Of a stretch of DNA of 64,000 nt, positions 52,504-62,578 are shown piece by piece; position 1 is the stretch's first letter, and the number at the start of each line of letters is the position of its first letter. Source of the DNA: Schizochytrium sp. TIO01. Taxonomy: Eukaryota > Protista > Bigyra: Labyrinthulomycetes. The notes under the pieces are model-generated. The model was not told the origin of the DNA and did no database searches. It saw nothing but the letters and a program-made list of their open reading frames with translations. Position numbers and translations under genes: made by a program. The stretch lies in assembly GCA_004764695.1 (NCBI GenBank), contig SMSO01000032.1, positions 5,364,483-5,428,482 on the forward strand. Direction: 5' to 3'.

Positions 52504-55500
52504 CTAGCCAAAAAAAACATCTTCAAAGTTGTCACCTACATCAGGCTCAAGAGCTTCCAAATCATCTTTCGTAGGCTCACACGGGCAAACATGTCCATTC
52601 GACTGCAGGACTTTATAAGAGCCTGCCGAAATTGAGTTAAAATTTGCTACTTGGGCAGCCTCGTTTGTTCCATCGACAGTGTACTGACATTCTTTCATAA
52701 AATTTTCTCGCAGCCTTGAAGAGATTGCGGGTCCGTCTTTCGGAGAGGTCATGTTTCCTCCGTGAGAGATTTCCAATGGAACGTGCATGACATGCGCTGG
52801 AGAATCTTGTACTTTTCGGATGTTTTTGAAGTTGTTGGGAATTGCTTGCTTTGCCTCTTCGGATATTGGCCTCGGCATGCTTGCTGATGATTTGCGAGCG
52901 ATCTTCAGTTGTCTCTGAAGGGGTGTCTCACATCGTTTTCCACCAATCAGGGGCACGTCTAAAGGCGCGCTCGAAAGGCTTATGTGAAGGGGCTTTGTAC
53001 TTGGTTTGATGATAGGAGAACAAAACCTGCTTACGTCTTGATCATGATTTGCCAATTGACTGACTGCCTTGAAAGATTCTCTGTTAGTGAACAACTTTTG
53101 TTTTTCAGCGCTAGTTGTTGTTGAAGAAAGATTTATTTCCTTGGTGAAGTCTTTCTGTGCATCAGACAAAACTCGCTGATCAATGCTTCTTGGAGGAAAG
53201 TACCTGTCAATTGTTTTTACCTTCGCGCTGACAGGCGAAGCATATAACTTTTGTCGCTCTTGAGCACCATTTGTAATAGCAAAACTATTTTGGTCACGTG
53301 TTATTGGTTGTTTACTGGGAGGTTTGTTCAGTTTACTAACATGACAAGCGGATGTAGACTTTCGTTTTGGAGCTTTAATGGAGGAAGATCTGACTTTTCT
53401 TTGCTCCTTGGGTTTTTGATCAACTAGTTGCAGCACATGCAGCGGTGTTTTATGTCCAGGGGCATTAGGAACGGATATTATATCCGAATTCACAACTTGA
53501 AGACCAAGCATATCAAGAGTGAAGTCAATGCCATGGAACTTGGGGTGTATTGCAAAAAGACGCAGAGGAGTTCCTGGAGATGTTTCAAACATGATTGGTG
53601 GGGATCGCGATGTCATGTAAGCTGACGCTAAGAGAGTATACTTACTTGTAACAAAGACTTCGTACCCGGACACTGGCACTGTACCCTGGATCAGAGACAC
53701 ACAGTGTTTACCATGAACAATGGAGATCTGCAAAGTACATTTTGATTCTACAAGCTGTTTCGCTTGCTCTGCAATCTTAGAAGCCCGTGTAGGTCCAATC
53801 TCATTCTGAAAAGTGTCTGGCATATATGTACAAACACGCAATAGTTGACTCAAGGTATGTGCGCCAAGCTCATGTAATTTAGCGATTGTTTTGGCTCCCA
53901 CAAAGGGGAGTTGCAAGAGTTCACCTGCTGAAGGCCATGAACGAGTTTCAAAACAACGAAGCAAAAGCTGAAGGTTAACGGCCACAGAAGATTTGAGAAG
54001 GATTTTAGCACACCCTAAGAGACTGCGAAGTAGCCTTATACCCTCAGTCTGTACATAGAGCAGTTCTTCACGTAAAGTACTATCTTTGGGAGCAGGTATA
54101 TCTCGGGCAAGGCTTGCTTGAATAAGTTGAAAAACCTTATCCTGTGCTGAATTGACACGATCGATATTTTTTCTCCCACGAAAACGCCCAAGCCGCCAGC
54201 TTACTTCATTTAGCCACAATTTCTGGTCCCTACGTAGCTGTATTTGTTCATAAAACTCCGATGCCGAAGCAAGTATTTTAACGATAGCAGAGATACTAGC
54301 ATCATCATCTAGCTCAAATAAATTTTGGATAGGAGGGAGAAGGCCGCCATCTGTCTCAGGGTGCAAACTACGGAAAAAGGACAAGCCTGTGCTAAGCCGT
54401 AAACTTTGAGAGCAAATCCAAGCCCCAAGATCTGTAACGCAAAGTGTCCTTGAGTCAGTTAATACAAGACACTCGTTCAAACGCATTGCCTTCAAATGGG
54501 TAGAGACAACGGCCTTCAGACGAGACTTCTCTGCAATGCTTACTCCACGCTCGACAAAAAAGAAAGTGGTTTCTAACCACGCATAAGCATCTGAAAATGT
54601 AGTAATTGCACCTAGATGAATTTCATGCAAGAGCGCCTCTTGCAAGTCGGTCTCCAAGACACTTTTTACTCTCTCAGAACCGGATAAAATACTTTCAAAC
54701 CTTGCCTTGTCGCCTGGATGAGTCATGATAATGGCATATCCTGAAGTATCAAGCCCAAAGCGACCTGCACGCCCAGTCATTTGTAAGATATTTGAAATGG
54801 AAAGCTCTTCCATTCCGCGAGATGGACCACGGTACGCTTTGGTGCCTTTAATAATAACAAGGTGAGCTGGCAAATTAATGCCTTGCGCGAGGGTAGATGT
54901 GCAAACTAAAACTGACAGAAGACCTTGACGAAATAGTTCCTCTACACAAACTTGATCGTTTGTAGACAACTCTGCAGTATGCCAAGCAACTCCTGCACGC
55001 TGAATGCACAAGGACAGGGCGCTATCCTTAATCTTGCTTAGAGCAGTTTTATTGCGATGTTCTACCTGGTTTGGCGTAAGCCTGATGCGCTCTTGTCGGT
55101 GGTCTGAGAGCAATTCTGCTGTTTGCCTTGCTCCTTTGCGACTTGTGCAAAACACCATTGCAGGTTTGCCTTGAGAATACTGTGCAATAAGCGTATGGAT
55201 ATGCGAATTCATTTCACGATGCAAGGTGAACTCGTTCTGACGAGGAGAGCCATAGGTGTAAACTCGGGTCTCAAGAGGACAAGGACGAAACTCTGGCCCA
55301 AAGATTAAAACCCCCCGCGGAACTGGGGCTCCTAACCATCGCGCAAGGTCGTGCGTATTGGGAAGAGTCCCTGAAGCCGCTGCGAAACGAATTGGGGGTA
55401 GCGTTGTCGTCAATAGGCGTCTAATGAATTGGAGACGCGAAACAACAATTTCAAGGACAGCCCCACGCCGTTCCTCAGACAGAAGATGGATCTCATCCAT

Positions 55501-56069
55501 TATCACGAGATCAAGATTTTCAAAAAATATTTCATAGCTTGACCACTTCCGCGTCATATGTTCAAGCTTCTCAGGAGTGAAGACGATTACATTTGCATCA
55601 TCAAGCATCCGCTGGCTTACACGCTTGTCACTTGTGGCGGCTATACATTTCACACCGTGCCGACCAAACTGCTCGTTCCAGTCCTCCACAACTTGTCTAC
55701 AAAGTGCCCGGGTTGGGGCCAAGAATATAGCCTTGCGACGAAAAATAACACAGCTACCTGTTACAAGCGATGAATCATGCAATTATTGAACGCGTAGAAC
55801 TAGCAGTGAGTCTTTCGCGTTCGCACAAGGCCTTCACAAAGGCTTTCGTCTAGCCAAAACTCCGTCTCAGAATCCCAGCAGCTATGGTAGGTTTTCCAAT
55901 GCAGAAACTTACGAATCATCGCCATAGCAAGCACCAGTGACTTGCCGCTGGAGGTTGGTGCCGACAGCACGAATGAGATGCCGTCGTCCAGAGCCACGGG
56001 TCGACACGCAATCTGCATCGCGTTCAGCTTCGCTGGCAGCCAGTCTCCATCGTGCAAATCATCCATCAT
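52504..56069 (-). CDS. HFM1: Meiotic DEIH-box helicase MER3/HFM1, ~1136 aa; exons 56069-55913 and 55757-52504
   Basis: SAPTSSGKS, FLAPTRALC, TPEK, MDEIHLL, SGTLPN, FGPEFRPCPL, TSTLAQGINLPAHLVIIKGT, QMTGRAGR, one Sec63-like region and a disordered tail. Phase-1 intron GTAAGT(55912)..AACAG(55758) joins the two ORF-track pieces in frame. Confidence 0.88.
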
Positions 56070-56558
56070 GCGCTGCAATTGCTTCGATCGAATTCGAATT
56101 TGAATTTTAATTTTCAAAAAGGCAGGAAAGATTCAAATTTTGGCAACCCTTGTTATCTTTTGAGAGAAGTAGTTCAAGTTAAATACGGAGACATACATAC
56201 ATACATAAGGACAAGTTCGGAACTAAAGCAGTGAGGAGAGAATGTTTGAAAATAGGATACATAGTGTACAGAAATCAATAATAGTATACAGGAGGCGCCA
56301 GCGGAGGGGCGCGGCGAAAGAGACGGCAGAGATCCTCTAGGTCACAAAGTGGGTGAACTTGTGTATGTAGAAGAGTATCTGTAAATCCAAAAAAGGTTTT
56401 GATGAAACACCCAGTGAAAGTTAGTTATGCAGTTCAATATATCGCAAACTCGATTTTGCACCCGATTCAATCCCACCAAACCCCCAGGATGATTGATACA
56501 CAAAGTGCAAGAAAGCAAAAGGTCAGCATGTTAAATTATTGATGTGCTGTTGAGAGAG

Positions 56559-56641
56559 CCCCTCAGATTGCAGTTAAAAAATAAGCAATCATCATGATAG
56601 TTGAATATCAGACAGCTCCAGAAATGTGATCCTCCTTGGGG
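56559..56641 (-). ncRNA. Box C/D snoRNA, dual guide to 18S rRNA
   Basis: Terminal CCCC/GGGG stem; variant box C AGGAGGA (56630-36); guide UUCUGGAGCUG with D' CUGA (56608-11); C' AUGAUGA (56589-95); 13-nt guide UUUUUAACUGCAA complementary to conserved 18S UUGCAGUUAAAAA, followed by D CUGA (56563-66). Confidence 0.8.
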
Positions 56642-56888
56642 AATACTCAACAACATCAACACAAATATGAACAGACAGATCAGACCATATTCGCATGCAA
56701 GCGCTTGTGACACATCTTACGCATTCCCTCAGTTCTCCAAAATGATGTCCGCACGTAGTCAATTACTCGGAGCAGATCTTGATTTATGGTTTGTCCTCCT
56801 TGGGGTATGTATGCGTATCGCTTTGGCACTGCTAGAAGGGGTTTTCCCTTTTAGCTCGGATGTGTTTAGAATCCAGGTTGATATGTAT

Positions 56889-57177
56889 GAATGTATGAGT
56901 CATGGCAGGCGCACCCCCTGCTCCAGACGGCTTCGAGAAATGGCCCTCCCTTGCCCCGAAAGGCATGGGAGATCCGAGCTCTGGGCGCATCCCGCACTTG
57001 TACCGCGAACGGCTCAAGCGCACGCAGGCAGACTTCTTGCCCACCAAGTCTCACAGAGCGCAAGGCCCTTTGCTCTGGCACCGGCATGAAAGTCACGGCG
57101 GCGTTTATTCGCTTCCCGCTCCAAAACGGAGCCAAAGATGCGGCGCCTCGCGACTGATTAAAGGTGCTGCCTGACCC
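56889..57177 (-). ncRNA. Large box H/ACA snoRNA guiding an LSU rRNA pseudouridine
   Basis: GCACC/GGUGC basal stem, AGUCGCG/CGUGACU upper stem. Pocket UUAAUC plus UUCAUGC pairs 13 bp with LSU GCAUGAA-UG-GAUUAA. H box AGAGCA (57071-76) lies 14 nt from the upper stem; ACA at 56892-94. G-U pairs and UUCG loops indicate the minus strand. Confidence 0.8.
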
Positions 57178-58109
57178 AGGCTTCTTCATCACTAAACCAA
57201 CCCTAACCATCAAAACTTGAACATTTCCAGCAACGTTTACCCGGTCTGCATAGATGAGCAATCAAACACAGCTCATGATCCTATCTCGAAAAAGATTCAG
57301 ATAATCCATATCGATCACGACCATCAAAGATCGCCGTGCCCAGAACGGAGGCGATCGAACCGATTTCGCAATTTTTCATGGGGACCATGTTATACTTGCT
57401 TACTCTACCAGATCTCGCCACACTACACCTCACGAAACCCAACCATACGTACCTCCTCATAGCTTACTGCTCATTCGCCGCGCCGCACAGCCGCCATCGG
57501 CGACGGATTCGATCTCATTTTGAGATTCGGGTTTGCTGCGAAGGATTTGCTTTCTGCAGCGCCCTTCCCTTGGCTCCAAGCCCCTCGCCACCACGCAATC
57601 CCTCCTAACCTCCTACCTATCCCAAACTATACTAGTCGTTCCATTACGTTTCAATGTGTTCTTTGACACATTTGCTTGGTCCCCCTCTTCACTGTGGTTG
57701 GCGCCGATTTTGCGGCCACAGGCAGACTTTGGCGGTTTCTGGAGAATCAGTTTCCGGTGCTCCTGGCAAGGGAAGATGCGTTCTGGAAGCACATTGTAGT
57801 TTGTGAGTCCTCTGGTAGGTTATTTACGTGGTGTGACATAAGATGGTGATGACAGCATTGGATAGAAGAGAATAAGATTAAAGAGGCCTAACAAAGAGGT
57901 CTAAAACACCTAGCTCTGCGAAGCCCTATTTGGCGCCTACTGCTCAAGCGGAGATCCCTCGCGACCAGTGGTGCGGGAGCGCGCGAGCAGCTGCATTCGC
58001 GCGAGTTGAAGTGAGAGCACTTGCGTGAATTCTCTTCGGAGGGTTTTTTGATAAGGTTAGAACCACCTCCAATCAGTTTCGACGCGTCTCCGGCGCAGAC
58101 TTGGCCATC

Positions 58110-59351
58110 ATGGCAGAGATTGTCGCCGCTCAGGCCGACGCTGAGCGCCGTGGCGCCGCTGCGAGAGATGGTGAGCGCAATGCCAACGAAGAAGCGGATG
58201 CTGCTGCCTTGGAGGCCATCCTGAACTCCTCGGACTCTACTCGCGATCTTGCGAGGCGCATGGATGACCTCGTAACCAGACTCAAGCGCCGGAGGTTCAA
58301 GTCCTCTTTTGAGCTCACGAGAGAAACTCTTCGTTTAGTTCGACTTTTGGTCAACGTCAAGAAATGGTCCGGACCTCGCGAGATGCTTCAGGTTGTCAGA
58401 GCATTTGGGCGTCGTCTTGTCAAAGCTCGCCCTGTTGAACTCGTGGTCGGAAACGTTTTCCGTCGTGTTATCCATATGGTCAAGGAAGAATATTTCCGTA
58501 TGCTCAAGGAAACTCAAGATGAAGCGCTCACAGAGGCAGCCACAACTGGAAAGCTTGTGAATGCCCTTGATCCCAAGGGTAATATCTTGCCTAACCGCGA
58601 TCTTGGAATTCGTATTGAAAACATGTCAGATACTCCGGACTGGAACGTGCGCAATGCTGCTGTAGAGGGTATCACTGAGATCCTCGAGGAGATGGAGAAC
58701 CTTGTGGAACCAATCTCAACGCAAGCATTGGACCACATCCACGCCAATGAGACGATTCTAGTGTATGGCGAGTCAGAGACAGTTTTTGTCTTCCTCAAGG
58801 CTGCTCGCCGCAAGCGTGACTTTCGCGTGATTGTGGCGGAGGCTTCTCCCGAATATGGTGGTCAGCGCATGGCCGATCGCCTCAGTTCTGCAGACCCTGC
58901 CCGTCCTGGAGATCGTAGCATTCCTACCATGGTTATTCCGGACTCCAATATCTTCGCCATTATGCCTCGTGTAAACAAGGTCATCATTGGCACTCGCGCC
59001 GTTATGGCGAACGGCGGGCTCATCGCGGAAGCTGGTATGCACATGGTGGCTCTCGCTGCACGTGAACATGCTGTGCCTGTCATGTGTGTCACAGGTCTCT
59101 ACAAGCTCTGTCCGTTGTTCCCATACAACCGTGATTCCTTTATTGATCTGAAGAGTCCGGGTCCCACTTTGCCTTACGCAAGCTTGGGCGAGTTGTCCGA
59201 TAGCATTCAGGTGTTGACCCCCACCTGCGACTATGTCCCTCCTGAGCTCGTAGACGTGCTCATCACCAACAACGGCCCTCATCAGCCCAGCTATGTGTAT
59301 AGGTTACTCTCTGAGCAATACGACACTAACGCTGAAGAGGATCTCATGTAA
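58110..59351 (+). CDS. EIF2B2: Translation initiation factor eIF2B beta subunit, 413 aa
   Basis: GRRLVKARPVELVVGNVFRRV, QALDHIHANETIL, VIVAEASP, FAIMPRVNKVIIG, ANGG, YKLCP, DYVPPELV, PSYVYRLLSEQY. Confidence 0.95.
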   Translation: MAEIVAAQADAERRGAAARDGERNANEEADAAALEAILNSSDSTRDLARRMDDLVTRLKRRRFKSSFELTRETLRLVRLLVNVKKWSGPREMLQVVRAFGRRLVKARPVELVVGNVFRRVIHMVKEEYFRMLKETQDEALTEAATTGKLVNALDPKGNILPNRDLGIRIENMSDTPDWNVRNAAVEGITEILEEMENLVEPISTQALDHIHANETILVYGESETVFVFLKAARRKRDFRVIVAEASPEYGGQRMADRLSSADPARPGDRSIPTMVIPDSNIFAIMPRVNKVIIGTRAVMANGGLIAEAGMHMVALAAREHAVPVMCVTGLYKLCPLFPYNRDSFIDLKSPGPTLPYASLGELSDSIQVLTPTCDYVPPELVDVLITNNGPHQPSYVYRLLSEQYDTNAEEDLM

Positions 59352-60032
59352 TACTTTGCAGAATGGAAAGCTCCTTTTCTTTACATCTCTCAATTCCCTC
59401 GCTTCGTCTCAACTAATCCCCTCAATCATCACCCATAATAATCAAAATCATCTCCTTGTTTATGTCTGATTAAATACGTTTCCTATATCATATTGATGAG
59501 TAAAGGACCCTCGCACCCTTTGTATTTTAAAAGTACATCGTGTAATTTACAGCCATTTCATCTCTGGTGAAATTTCCTTATGATTAGTATAGTAGATTTT
59601 TGGCAGACAACTATGTTGTACAATAAATTGTCAAGCTACGCCTTTGGGCGGTAAGACGAAGTTCACTGAGTTCGTCTTTCTTTAGTGTAATTATGGTAAA
59701 ATATGAATATATGTGCGATCCTGATTAATACAACTACTAGAATAAGAGTTAAGCATTTGACAGTGCCAACCACGGAGCTCTCATTGACAGAATTTATTAA
59801 GATTAGATAGAGACAATTCAAACAAAAAATCATGATACGAGCAGTGATCGTCATCGATACAGCAAAGGAAATTAGAGGTAACGAAAGTCACGAAATTTTG
59901 ATATTGTTTAGTTCTAAAGGATTACACACGAAAAGTTATAAAGGGGCGAAAAGAAGGAGTCAAGGATCCTACATGCTTGAAAATCAGCAAAAGCAGTACT
60001 CAATAAATCAGACCAATCAGATCATCAAAGGT

Positions 60033-60890
60033 TTAAGCCGTCGACTGGTCAACGGTCTCCTGTGCAGGCGGAACAGGTGCCTCAGTCGAGGTTGCCGCAG
60101 GAGTAGTAGTAGCAGTAGACGCAGCAGCAGAAGCCTGATCAGCGAATTTGACCTGCTTTGGGCTCGCCTTTACAGCACTCTCTGCAGCCTCACTCTTGGC
60201 ATCATCCTCATCATCGTTTTCGTCCTCCTCGCCCTCCTCATTATCCTCATCGTCAGCGCTATCATCTTCGTCGTTTGCATCGTCATTGTCATCATCGTTT
60301 GCATCATTGTCATCATTGTTTTCGTCATCACTTTCCTCACCATCATTTTCCTCACCATCATCATCATCATCTTCTTCTTCTTCTTCTTCTTCATCCTCAC
60401 GGCTAATCTCCTTGATAACAAAGACGCCGTCCTCCTGCTTGTAGATTGCAATGGTGCCATCATCGAGTTTACGCAAGATAGATCTGCGTTCTCTCTCGCG
60501 GAGTGTGGCGACGTAGCGCTCAATCTCACGGGCGTTCGCTCGAGGGAGCATGGCAAGATCTCCGCTTCCCTTGCTGCTTTGAGGCAAAGGATCTACGCAG
60601 ATCGGACACACATGTTTTCCTTTAGCGCAATCGTCGCAGAGTTTGTGATAAGCCCTCGTGACAGTATGCTCCTTCTCACAGAGCACGCACTTGCGGGCCG
60701 TCTTGATGGGCTTGTACTTGCGGAATTTCTTGCGCCATTCGATCTTCTCGTCACACCTTTGGCAAAGTCCGTGGTGCTGGATCGAGAGAATGTTGAGCGT
60801 CTTCTTCGAGTTCTTGTTGTGCTTGAAGGCAAAGCTGTTCTGGTGCTTTTGGCCACGAGACCGGCCCCGATCTCCGCGAGCCGTCGACAT
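60033..60890 (-). CDS. C9orf85/DUF2039-like Cys-rich protein with long acidic tail, 285 aa
   Basis: QKHQNSFAFK, GLCQRCDEKIEWR.KF.KYKP, four CxxC pairs, YHKLC; D/E-rich C-terminus. ATG at 60890. Confidence 0.88.
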   Translation of the reverse strand: MSTARGDRGRSRGQKHQNSFAFKHNKNSKKTLNILSIQHHGLCQRCDEKIEWRKKFRKYKPIKTARKCVLCEKEHTVTRAYHKLCDDCAKGKHVCPICVDPLPQSSKGSGDLAMLPRANAREIERYVATLRERERRSILRKLDDGTIAIYKQEDGVFVIKEISREDEEEEEEEDDDDDGEENDGEESDDENNDDNDANDDDNDDANDEDDSADDEDNEEGEEDENDDEDDAKSEAAESAVKASPKQVKFADQASAAASTATTTPAATSTEAPVPPAQETVDQSTA

Positions 60891-62578
60891 GATCGCCTTC
60901 TGCTGCTGCACAGACCTTAAAAAACTTTTCCCCAAGGACCAGAAAGTCCAAACTTGACTCTATACCGACTAAACTGCGCAGAGCCTCGTTGACAAGCACT
61001 GCCAATCCGGTTCGAGGAATGCCCAGGCCCTTCGGTCTGATGTTTTCACGCTGCGTGGCTGGCTAAGGCGCTTCCCTATGTAAGCATACATCACAGAACG
61101 CCATTCGTTCTTTATTAACAGTAATATGTACCGTCACCATTCATCGCAAGAATTCCTAAGGATAGATAGGACTACACTAACCTAATAACACTGAAGCTCC
61201 AAAGAGGAGAGCCAGATGAACAAGATGGAGAGTACCTACCTAACCCAAGATGGGTAATTTCACACGAGGTTCATTTTGCACGAGGGATAAACGCGAACAA
61301 ACGCAAGAACTAGGTGAGACGATGTGATGAGGAGATGGAGAATGGATCAATATTGCATCTTCATCACCACAAATGATGAAGAACATGAGGTATTTGGGCG
61401 AATAAATCTAGCGCTTTTCCTATTGAAAATTATACTACTACAACTAGGTCTATCCTGTAATGATCTGGTCTATTGCTATTGCTATAGGTCTAAAGCTGGG
61501 CTGGTTCAATGAGTATCTTCACTACCGATCGTACAGCTTACCATCAACGCTAGAGGTTTAGCTTGAGTTCACGATGAGTAATCGTGACACTTGTTTGTTG
61601 CATTGCCTGGTCTTTGCAAATATCTCGGTATGTGGGATAGTAAGACCTTTTGTCTGCTTGAAATTCAAGAGTCAATGAGATAAATTTTGTATGTCAGTAC
61701 TATATTTGTTTTCGAATATTCCCCATTTGAGTGTCATGGCCCCTTGTTCTTGCAGAAAATTGGTTAGCATTTAACTTGAGATACATAAAGTTACTCTACT
61801 GATAAATTCAACTAAAATTATCTTTTCACATACGCCTATTCAAATAATTTGATACGTAAGTGGGATCTCACAATCGTCTTTGAATATTCTTAAATTCCTC
61901 CGAAAGGCTCGCAGGTCAATTTCATCTGATTGAAGTAAACCAGCTCTTCAGGCCAAACAGACCACGTCATAAACTATCTCAAAGCTTACGAACACTTGCT
62001 TTACTCGTTTATCTCGAAACTTTCTTTGAGAACCTTGATTTGCTCAGGATGTAGAACTGCACGCACTGGCTACATGAAAAAATCAACTTCTGTTCACTTT
62101 GCAAATTTCACCCCATTCAATGATATGATAAAACTGTACACAAAGAAGTCTTCTAGGTCTTCAGAGCTAGAAGTGTTCGGAGCCATCGTTTTTCTTCTAT
62201 CGTCCCTACCCAGTCCTGTACTAGTATTTTCTCCCAGAACTAGATTGTGGATGTGCCAAGATTCAACAATATCATACTACAAACGCTTCTATATACGGAC
62301 ACTAGGTTCCTCCACATTTGATAATGTTGAGTGCACCTCGTATGGGTGGTAGTAGGGAATACAGGGAACATTTGGGGGGCTTATGAGGACCACTGCTTGG
62401 ACAGGGTTGGCGAGGTATTCGAGGGTGGCAAACGAGAAAACTTGGAACAGAGGGTGCTTGCGTCAGTGAATACTTTGTAAGACAACGGGACTGGAGGCAC
62501 CCGCGTGAATTCCTGAGCAAAGTTGGTTTTTTGTTAAGCAGGAAGGTCGTCAGTCTCTGCCTTGCGTGAGATTTCAAC

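What the first reader, a model, noticed from the sequence alone, without database searches (positions are those of the whole stretch)
56889..57177. Oversized H/ACA RNA with a ring-closing stem and extra UUCG-capped domains
The 5' hairpin is a textbook guide for the LSU U in GCAUGAA-U-GGAUUAA, which I recall as yeast Psi2314, guided there by the unusually large snR86. The RNA is about twice the normal H/ACA size. Extra helices include GCGCUUG/CAAGUGC with GCCG-UUCG-CGGU, CUCCC/GGGAG with a UUCG loop, and AGACUU/AAGUCU. Its 5' end GGGUCAGGCA can pair with UGCC-A-UGACUC just before the ACA, competing with a conventional 3' hairpin. CAGAGC/GCUCUG can also sequester the H box, and a perfect box C (GUGAUGA, ~57185-91) lies just upstream with no clear box D. 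Suggests an atypical, possibly switchable or second-function snoRNP.
Basis: partly seen in the sequence, partly recalled or inferred. Interest (0 to 1): 0.7.

Follow-up and report, generated by a model that had tools for sequence, protein, structure and literature searches.

The report
Large intronic H/ACA rRNA guide RNA
This is a ~280-nt RNA gene in the spliced-out intron of a short non-coding transcript, most likely an ordinary H/ACA guide for one ribosomal uridine (yeast U2314); it has two relatives in other protists, its second guide appears to have decayed, and the proposed ring-closing switch is not found in those relatives.

Summary
The H/ACA call holds; the 'switch' reading mostly does not. 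The RNA (minus strand, ~57167-56889) lies in a 1074-nt GT-AG intron of a 234-nt non-coding transcript (joint in 3 of 8 laid runs), beside two C/D-like snoRNAs, in a thraustochytrid. Its 5' hairpin pairs 7+6 nt around LSU U2314, 14 nt from box H (0 of 300 shuffles as good). A metagenome scan gave two homologues, one from Nannochloropsis gaditana. They keep this hairpin, are also long (225, 228 nt), and fold as plain two-hairpin RNAs whose 3' pockets both predict LSU U2135. In the candidate that 3' pocket has diverged and has no canonical target; a 14-nt match to helix 89 is only suggestive (11 of 150 shuffles). The 5'-flank/pre-ACA pairing is real in sequence (about 0.1-1.5% by chance) but no stronger than the normal 3' stem, absent in both homologues, and lost if ~3 nt are trimmed. 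Box C has no partner D and is not conserved. RNA ends, the modification and the host rRNA sequence were not tested. New member of a known kind; low to moderate interest.

The parts
56889..57167 (-). Predicted mature H/ACA snoRNA, ~279 nt (ends inferred, not mapped)
57078..57167 (-). 5' hairpin: lower stem GCACC/GGUGC (57167-57163 / 57082-57078), extended upper stem
   Evidence: free fold of this part alone; lower stem identical in 2 of 2 homologues
57156..57161 (-). 5' strand of 5' pocket, UUAAUC
57084..57090 (-). 3' strand of 5' pocket, UUCAUGC, starting 14 nt before box H
57071..57076 (-). Box H, AGAGCA
57055..57069 (-). Small hinge hairpin after box H (predicted; not seen in homologues)
57039..57054 (-). 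5' strand of the conventional 3' hairpin: lower stem and diverged pocket strand
56993..57022 (-). Inserted helix 1 with UUCG loop at top of 3' hairpin
   Evidence: p 0.98-1.0
56910..56989 (-). Inserted helix 2 with UUCG loop
   Evidence: insert z -2.86
56895..56910 (-). 3' strand of 3' hairpin: diverged pocket strand CUGCCAU and lower stem; has two possible partners
56892..56894 (-). Box ACA (a second ACA lies at 56886-56884)
57168..57178 (-). 5' flank able to pair with the pre-ACA strand (ring-closing stem); candidate-specific
57186..57192 (-). Box C-like GUGAUGA with no partner box D; probably chance
56379..57452 (-). 1074-nt GT-AG intron that hosts the snoRNA cluster
   Evidence: joint 56378/57453; absent from DNA-like run X20
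57453..57536 (-). Host exon 1 (outer end is a contig end, not a mapped start)
56229..56378 (-). Host exon 2; spliced host has a longest ATG ORF of 15 codons
56726..56805 (-). Neighbouring C/D-like snoRNA (a), box C variant AGGAGGA; predicted LSU targets G1434 and C1882 (yeast numbers)
56559..56641 (-). Neighbouring C/D-like snoRNA (b), box C variant AGGAGGA; two predicted SSU guides

Best explanation
The element is likely a conventional two-hairpin H/ACA snoRNA of about 280 nt, encoded in the spliced intron of a short non-coding host transcript, whose 5' pocket is predicted to guide pseudouridylation of the LSU uridine equivalent to yeast U2314. Shown: sequence, intron, pocket complementarity, homologues. 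Inferred steps: the intron is excised and trimmed into three snoRNAs; one Cbf5/Nop10/Nhp2/Gar1 set binds each hairpin at boxes H and ACA; the 5' pocket clamps GCAUGAA and GAUUAA and presents the U. The 3' hairpin likely serves mainly for stability: its ancestral U2135 guide has decayed and its top carries variable inserted helices. The 5' flank pairing is likely a precursor-only or chance structure, removed by trimming.
For: 5' part folds freely into the pocket hairpin. Pocket scores 13 with no G-U pairs; 0 of 300 shuffles reach it; top hit of a blind scan of all boxes in the intron. Joint with GT-AG ends in 3 of 4 runs (2 studies; RNA status is the tool's guess), none in DNA-like X20. Two C/D-like RNAs in the same intron. 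2 of 102 metagenome loci pass a stem filter that 0 of 120 viral control loci pass; both share the lower stem beyond the search pattern, lie in apparent introns and fold as two hairpins. The candidate keeps a 3' lower stem at the homologous place (8 of 5000 random windows as good), favoured at p 0.83-0.99 for starts at 57172 or later. 0 of 7 strain variants in the intron fall in the three predicted RNAs (about 0.02 by hand arithmetic).
Against: The free fold of the whole 289 nt hides the pocket and box H in other helices (p 0.94-0.97); opening them costs 6 kcal/mol, and this persists without the 5' flank. The ring stem is above chance and wins whenever nt up to 57177 are present. Only two homologues, both distant; upper-stem comparison gives too few changes for a covariation claim. 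No Rfam match at E up to 10. Host rRNA was not obtained: targets rest on proxy rRNAs from other eukaryotes. Contigs show no RNA ends, strand or level.
Confidence: 0.72

Rival explanations
1. U2314 guide whose 3' pocket has been retargeted to LSU helix 89 (yeast position 2835): a new pseudouridine if the host has U there, or a pre-rRNA folding contact if it has C.
For: Best non-canonical match in both proxy LSUs is UUGUGGCAG-CCAAG, 9+5 nt with 2 G-U pairs, in the register set by homology. Both pocket strands changed relative to the homologues.
Against: 11 of 150 shuffles score as well. All 10 proxy rows long enough to show the site have C there, and the match leaves 0-1 nt unpaired rather than 2. 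Host LSU not seen.
Confidence: 0.1
2. The mature RNA keeps the 5' flank and is ring-closed or bistable: the flank replaces the 3' lower stem, box ACA follows the closing stem, and the fold acts as a maturation or activity switch.
For: Flank duplex -15.3 to -18.1 kcal/mol, 5-8 of 5000 random windows. 7.5 kcal/mol better than the conventional fold when the flank is present. Further flank helices AUGAA/UUCAU and GGGUUGGU/AUCAACCU are predicted. The 3' guide is lost, which would free this hairpin.
Against: Absent in 2 of 2 homologues. Conventional partner equally strong. A start at 57174 already abolishes it. 46 of 3000 random 25-nt windows do as well.
Confidence: 0.12
3. Composite C/D-H/ACA RNA (U85-like) starting at box C 57192.
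For: Perfect RUGAUGA 19 nt upstream of the first stem.
Against: Nearest downstream CUGA (56732) is box D of neighbour (a), which has its own box C and terminal stem. No box C upstream in either homologue. 38 such motifs in the window.
Confidence: 0.03
4. Not an H/ACA RNA: another structured RNA in the free-energy fold, or a decaying copy.
For: The unconstrained fold (z -2.44) hides the pocket.
Against: Pocket, lower stem and box H spacing are shared with two distant homologues. No Rfam family matches.
Confidence: 0.03

Closest known systems
Yeast snR86 (guide of 25S Psi2314)
   Same: Same predicted target; oversized H/ACA RNA with poorly conserved extra structure.
   Different: snR86 is ~1000 nt and guides with its 3' hairpin (passages of PMC2551606, PMC5824354); here the 5' hairpin guides, the RNA is ~280 nt, and there is no Rfam match.
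S. pombe AJ632008 (HACA_46) and Neurospora Nc_HACA_7
   Same: Functional homologues of snR86; AJ632008 carries the guide in the first hairpin, as here (passages of PMC5824354).
   Different: Sequences not compared here; Nc_HACA_7 is ~180 nt and uses hairpin 2.
Human SNORA48/ACA48 and SNORA19/ACA19 (recalled, not from a call)
   Same: Recalled as guides of the human equivalents of U2314 and U2135, the two sites the homologues combine.
   Different: Separate normal-sized RNAs in human; a paper search for both names found nothing.
Intronic polycistronic snoRNA clusters of plants and algae (e.g. Ostreococcus)
   Same: Several snoRNAs cut from one precursor; extended forms have been seen (passages of PMC7671301).
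   Different: Here the host is a 234-nt non-coding two-exon transcript in a thraustochytrid, and both C/D neighbours have box C AGGAGGA.

Membership tests
Box H/ACA snoRNA | Box H (ANANNA) in a hinge after hairpin 1 | tested here: met
   AGAGCA 57076-57071; ACAUCA and AGAGAA at the same place in homologues
Box H/ACA snoRNA | ACA 3 nt from the 3' end | tested here: inconclusive
   ACA at 56894 aligns with homologue ACA boxes; the RNA end is not mapped
Box H/ACA snoRNA | Hairpin-hinge-hairpin-tail fold | tested here: inconclusive
   Each half folds so alone and both homologues fold so freely, but the candidate's whole-length free fold does not
Box H/ACA snoRNA | Bipartite guide placing a U 14-16 nt from box H or ACA | tested here: met
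   5' pocket 7+6 pairs, 14 nt, 0 of 300 shuffles, on proxy rRNAs; 3' pocket has no canonical target (224 of 300 shuffles as good)
Box H/ACA snoRNA | Binds Cbf5/dyskerin, Nop10, Nhp2, Gar1; stable discrete RNA; guide-dependent pseudouridine | not testable with these tools
   Only contigs available
snR86 family | Sequence/structure match to the family model | tested here: not met
   No snR86 hit at gathering score or at E up to 10
snR86 family | Guides LSU U2314 from the 3' hairpin | tested here: not met
   Same target, but from the 5' hairpin
Composite C/D-H/ACA scaRNA (U85 type) | Terminal boxes C and D enclosing the H/ACA domain | tested here: not met
   Box C present; no free box D; not conserved
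snR30/U17 | m1 and m2 motifs in the 3' hairpin (motifs recalled) | tested here: not met
   Not in 57070-56889 on reading; an m2-like heptamer at 56792 lies inside neighbour (a); no Rfam hit
RNase MRP/P, SRP, U3 and other Rfam families | Covariance-model match | tested here: not met

The most novel reading that the evidence does not exclude
In thraustochytrids an ancestral double guide (U2314 + U2135) was rebuilt: the 3' pocket now grips LSU helix 89 next to the peptidyl-transferase centre, and a 5' flank strand competes for the same pre-ACA strand, so trimming or refolding switches that second activity on. That would be an H/ACA RNA with a built-in conformational gate and a newly evolved target.
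Probability: 0.08. Interest if true: 0.65.

Novelty: new member of a known kind. Interest (0 to 1): 0.27.

Why it matters
It defines an H/ACA family absent from Rfam 15, shared by a thraustochytrid, Nannochloropsis and a third protist. My searches found no snoRNA study for these groups (listings only). It shows a guide pocket being lost or retargeted while its partner pocket stays fixed, which can be tested with one rRNA sequence and a pseudouridine map. If the ring stem and helix-89 contact proved real, it would be an H/ACA RNA with a structural switch; the evidence makes that unlikely.

Tried and rejected
Rfam: 0 hits at gathering score in 64 kb; 6 weak, irrelevant hits in 53000-61000. No whole genome held. 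No RNA holder on record: the RNA label of the runs is a guess. Runs X21, X22, X24 covered only the eIF2B-beta gene, not the host unit, and X14 had a hole at 57029-57217; neither is evidence. No divergent strain was found, so no covariation from reads. Eukaryotic LSU motif in viral contigs: 0. Homologue patterns in viral contigs: 0 of 120 and 0 of 44 loci passed. The metagenome pattern fixed the first two upper-stem pairs and a 45-75 nt gap, so normal-sized homologues could not be found. Records of L190 and L172 are not held as genomes. L190's host protein is vigilin-like with no close named relative: taxon unknown. MAFFT misregistered the homologues, so no covariance model or pair count was made; anchors were compared instead. 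A separate U2135 guide elsewhere in the window: 3 loose pattern matches, none in this intron, not followed up. A second H/ACA RNA at 57395-57200: no convincing pocket. Telomerase RNA, RNase MRP/P, SRP, snR30 and composite scaRNA considered and dropped. Prokaryotic promoter/terminator scan at chance level. Earlier-findings look-ups returned nothing.

Full report
Setting. The element reads on the minus strand between an eIF2B-beta gene (+, from 58110) and a helicase-like gene (-, from about 56070; it looks MER3-like, my label, from the ORFs). The best named relative of the eIF2B-beta protein is Hondaea fermentalgiana at 77% identity, so the host is a thraustochytrid. No whole genome was held. 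Rfam gave no match at gathering score in the window and nothing relevant at E up to 10 in 53000-61000.

Host transcript. Contigs of four runs guessed to be RNA were laid on 56000-58200. Three of the four (X1 and X14 of one study, X13 of another) join 56378 to 57453, skipping 1074 nt with GT-AG ends on the minus strand; X2 holds the unspliced form 56236-57482. None of the four covers 57554-57923 or 56000-56221, while X20 runs through the region with no joint, as DNA would. Three further runs did not cover the unit. The spliced product is 234 nt with a longest ATG ORF of 15 codons. The same intron holds two C/D-like RNAs with 11-14 nt rRNA complements and CCCC/GGG(G) terminal stems. The seven strain variants seen in the intron (56417, 56662, 56695, 56717, 57219, 57300, 57314) all fall outside the three predicted RNAs, which cover 442 of 1074 nt (about 0.02 by hand arithmetic; weak). 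Contigs do not show ends, strand or level.

5' hairpin. Folded alone, 57170-57071 gives the H/ACA hairpin with an open pocket as its best fold and in all 12 listed suboptimal folds. The pocket pairs 7+6 nt around the U of GCAUGAA-U-GGAUUAA with no G-U pairs, 14 nt from box H. 0 of 300 shuffles reach that score against a proxy rRNA, and it tops a blind scan of every H or ACA box in the intron. The proxies are eukaryotic rDNA contigs found in prokaryote assemblies (selected by exact match to this site); the host rRNA was not obtained. Counting from published yeast modifications (table of PMC8307265) gives U2314, guided in yeast by the ~1000-nt snR86 through its 3' hairpin (passages of PMC2551606 and PMC5824354). 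Against this reading, the free fold of the whole 289 nt (-130.9 kcal/mol, z -2.44) buries pocket and box H in other helices; opening them costs 6 kcal/mol, and the rival helices persist without the 5' flank. Protein and substrate binding would have to pay that cost, which is inference.

Homologues. A gapped pattern scan of metagenome contigs gave 102 loci. Two, L190 and L172, pass a stem filter that 0 of 120 viral control loci pass. They share the GCACC/GGUGC lower stem, which was not in the pattern. L172 is Nannochloropsis gaditana by a 100% protein match next to it; L190 lies between exons of a vigilin-like gene of an unidentified eukaryote. Both appear intronic from their splice-site motifs. 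They measure 225 and 228 nt from first stem to ACA+3, against 279 here, and both fold freely as two hairpins. L190's 3' hairpin has two branches on top like the candidate's; L172's has one long irregular stem. The inserted helices share no evident sequence. So large size and an expanded 3' top are family traits, and the candidate adds about 50 nt. Fungal H/ACA RNAs have a median of 188 nt, with 90% in 148-266 nt (passage of PMC5824354).

3' pocket. Both homologues carry AUUA(G) and CAGUC, the latter exactly 14 nt before ACA, and independently return the same best target, GACUG-U-Y-UAAU (27 and 30 of 300 shuffles as good, singly weak). That is yeast-numbered U2135, which is not in the yeast modification table; I recall its human equivalent being modified. 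In the candidate the same positions read CUUG(G) and CUGCCAU, with no canonical target (224 of 300 shuffles as good). Allowing any nucleotide and 0-2 unpaired bases, the best match in both proxies is LSU helix 89, UUGUGGCAG-CCAAG, but 11 of 150 shuffles equal it, and all 10 proxy rows that show the site have C at position 2835. I recall yeast having U there; the host base is unknown. Target loss and switching are documented in fungal snoRNAs (passages).

Ring stem and other extras. The 5' flank does pair with the pre-ACA strand above chance (4 of 3000 12-nt windows, 46 of 3000 25-nt windows; 5-21 of 5000) and wins by 7.5 kcal/mol when present. But the conventional partner at 57054-57039 is as strong (-18.2 against -18.1 kcal/mol) and sits where the homologues' stem sits. 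The ring vanishes for a start at 57174, and the conventional stem reaches p 0.83-0.99 from 57172 on. Both homologues lack the ring. The two UUCG helices are robust predictions, while AGACUU/AAGUCU and CAGAGC/GCUCUG are not. Box C at 57192-57186 has no free box D, is missing upstream of both homologues and is one of 38 in the window.

Mechanism and verdict. Most likely (0.72) the intron is spliced out and trimmed, and a two-hairpin H/ACA RNP guides pseudouridine at the U2314-equivalent with its 5' pocket; the 3' hairpin is structural, with a decayed guide. The processing and assembly steps follow general knowledge (passages of PMC10557570) and were not shown here. Retargeting to helix 89 (0.10) and a ring-closed mature form (0.12) remain open for want of close relatives and host rRNA. 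It works like snR86 but fails the snR86 family tests. Searches for snoRNA with Aurantiochytrium (1 paper), stramenopile terms (1), Nannochloropsis (14) and Ectocarpus terms (16) showed no description of this family in the listings; I did not open those papers or their supplements, where annotation tables could list it. Extended snoRNA forms from clusters are known in Ostreococcus (passages of PMC7671301). Novelty: new member of a known kind. Interest 0.27.

Noticed in passing
window 56805-56726 and 56641-56559, minus: Two C/D-like snoRNAs in the same intron both have box C as AGGAGGA instead of RUGAUGA, after the same CCCCA leader. Predicted targets: LSU G1434 and C1882 (yeast numbers) and two SSU sites; none checked against known methylations.
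   Followed up: partly
window 57395-57240, minus: Predicted branched hairpin in the first part of the intron with an H-like ATAGGA at 57284 but no downstream ACA and no convincing pocket; identity unexplained. Two strain variants fall in it.
   Followed up: partly
window 57536-56229, minus: Two-exon 234-nt non-coding snoRNA host transcript, apparently its own unit between the eIF2B-beta and helicase-like genes.
   Followed up: yes
L190 594-818 (+) and L172 703-476 (-): H/ACA RNAs predicted to guide LSU U2314 and U2135 together; L172 is from Nannochloropsis gaditana, in an apparent intron just downstream of the METTL5 coding sequence. They were not run against Rfam.
   Followed up: yes
window 57208-57199, minus: A 10-nt stretch resembling TTAGGG telomere repeats just upstream of box C; part of a predicted flank helix with 56882-56875. 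Probably chance.
   Followed up: no
L003, L007, L019, L021, L022: In these eukaryotic rDNA contigs the LSU match breaks off shortly upstream of the U2314 site, as expected for site-specific retroelement or intron insertions.
   Followed up: no
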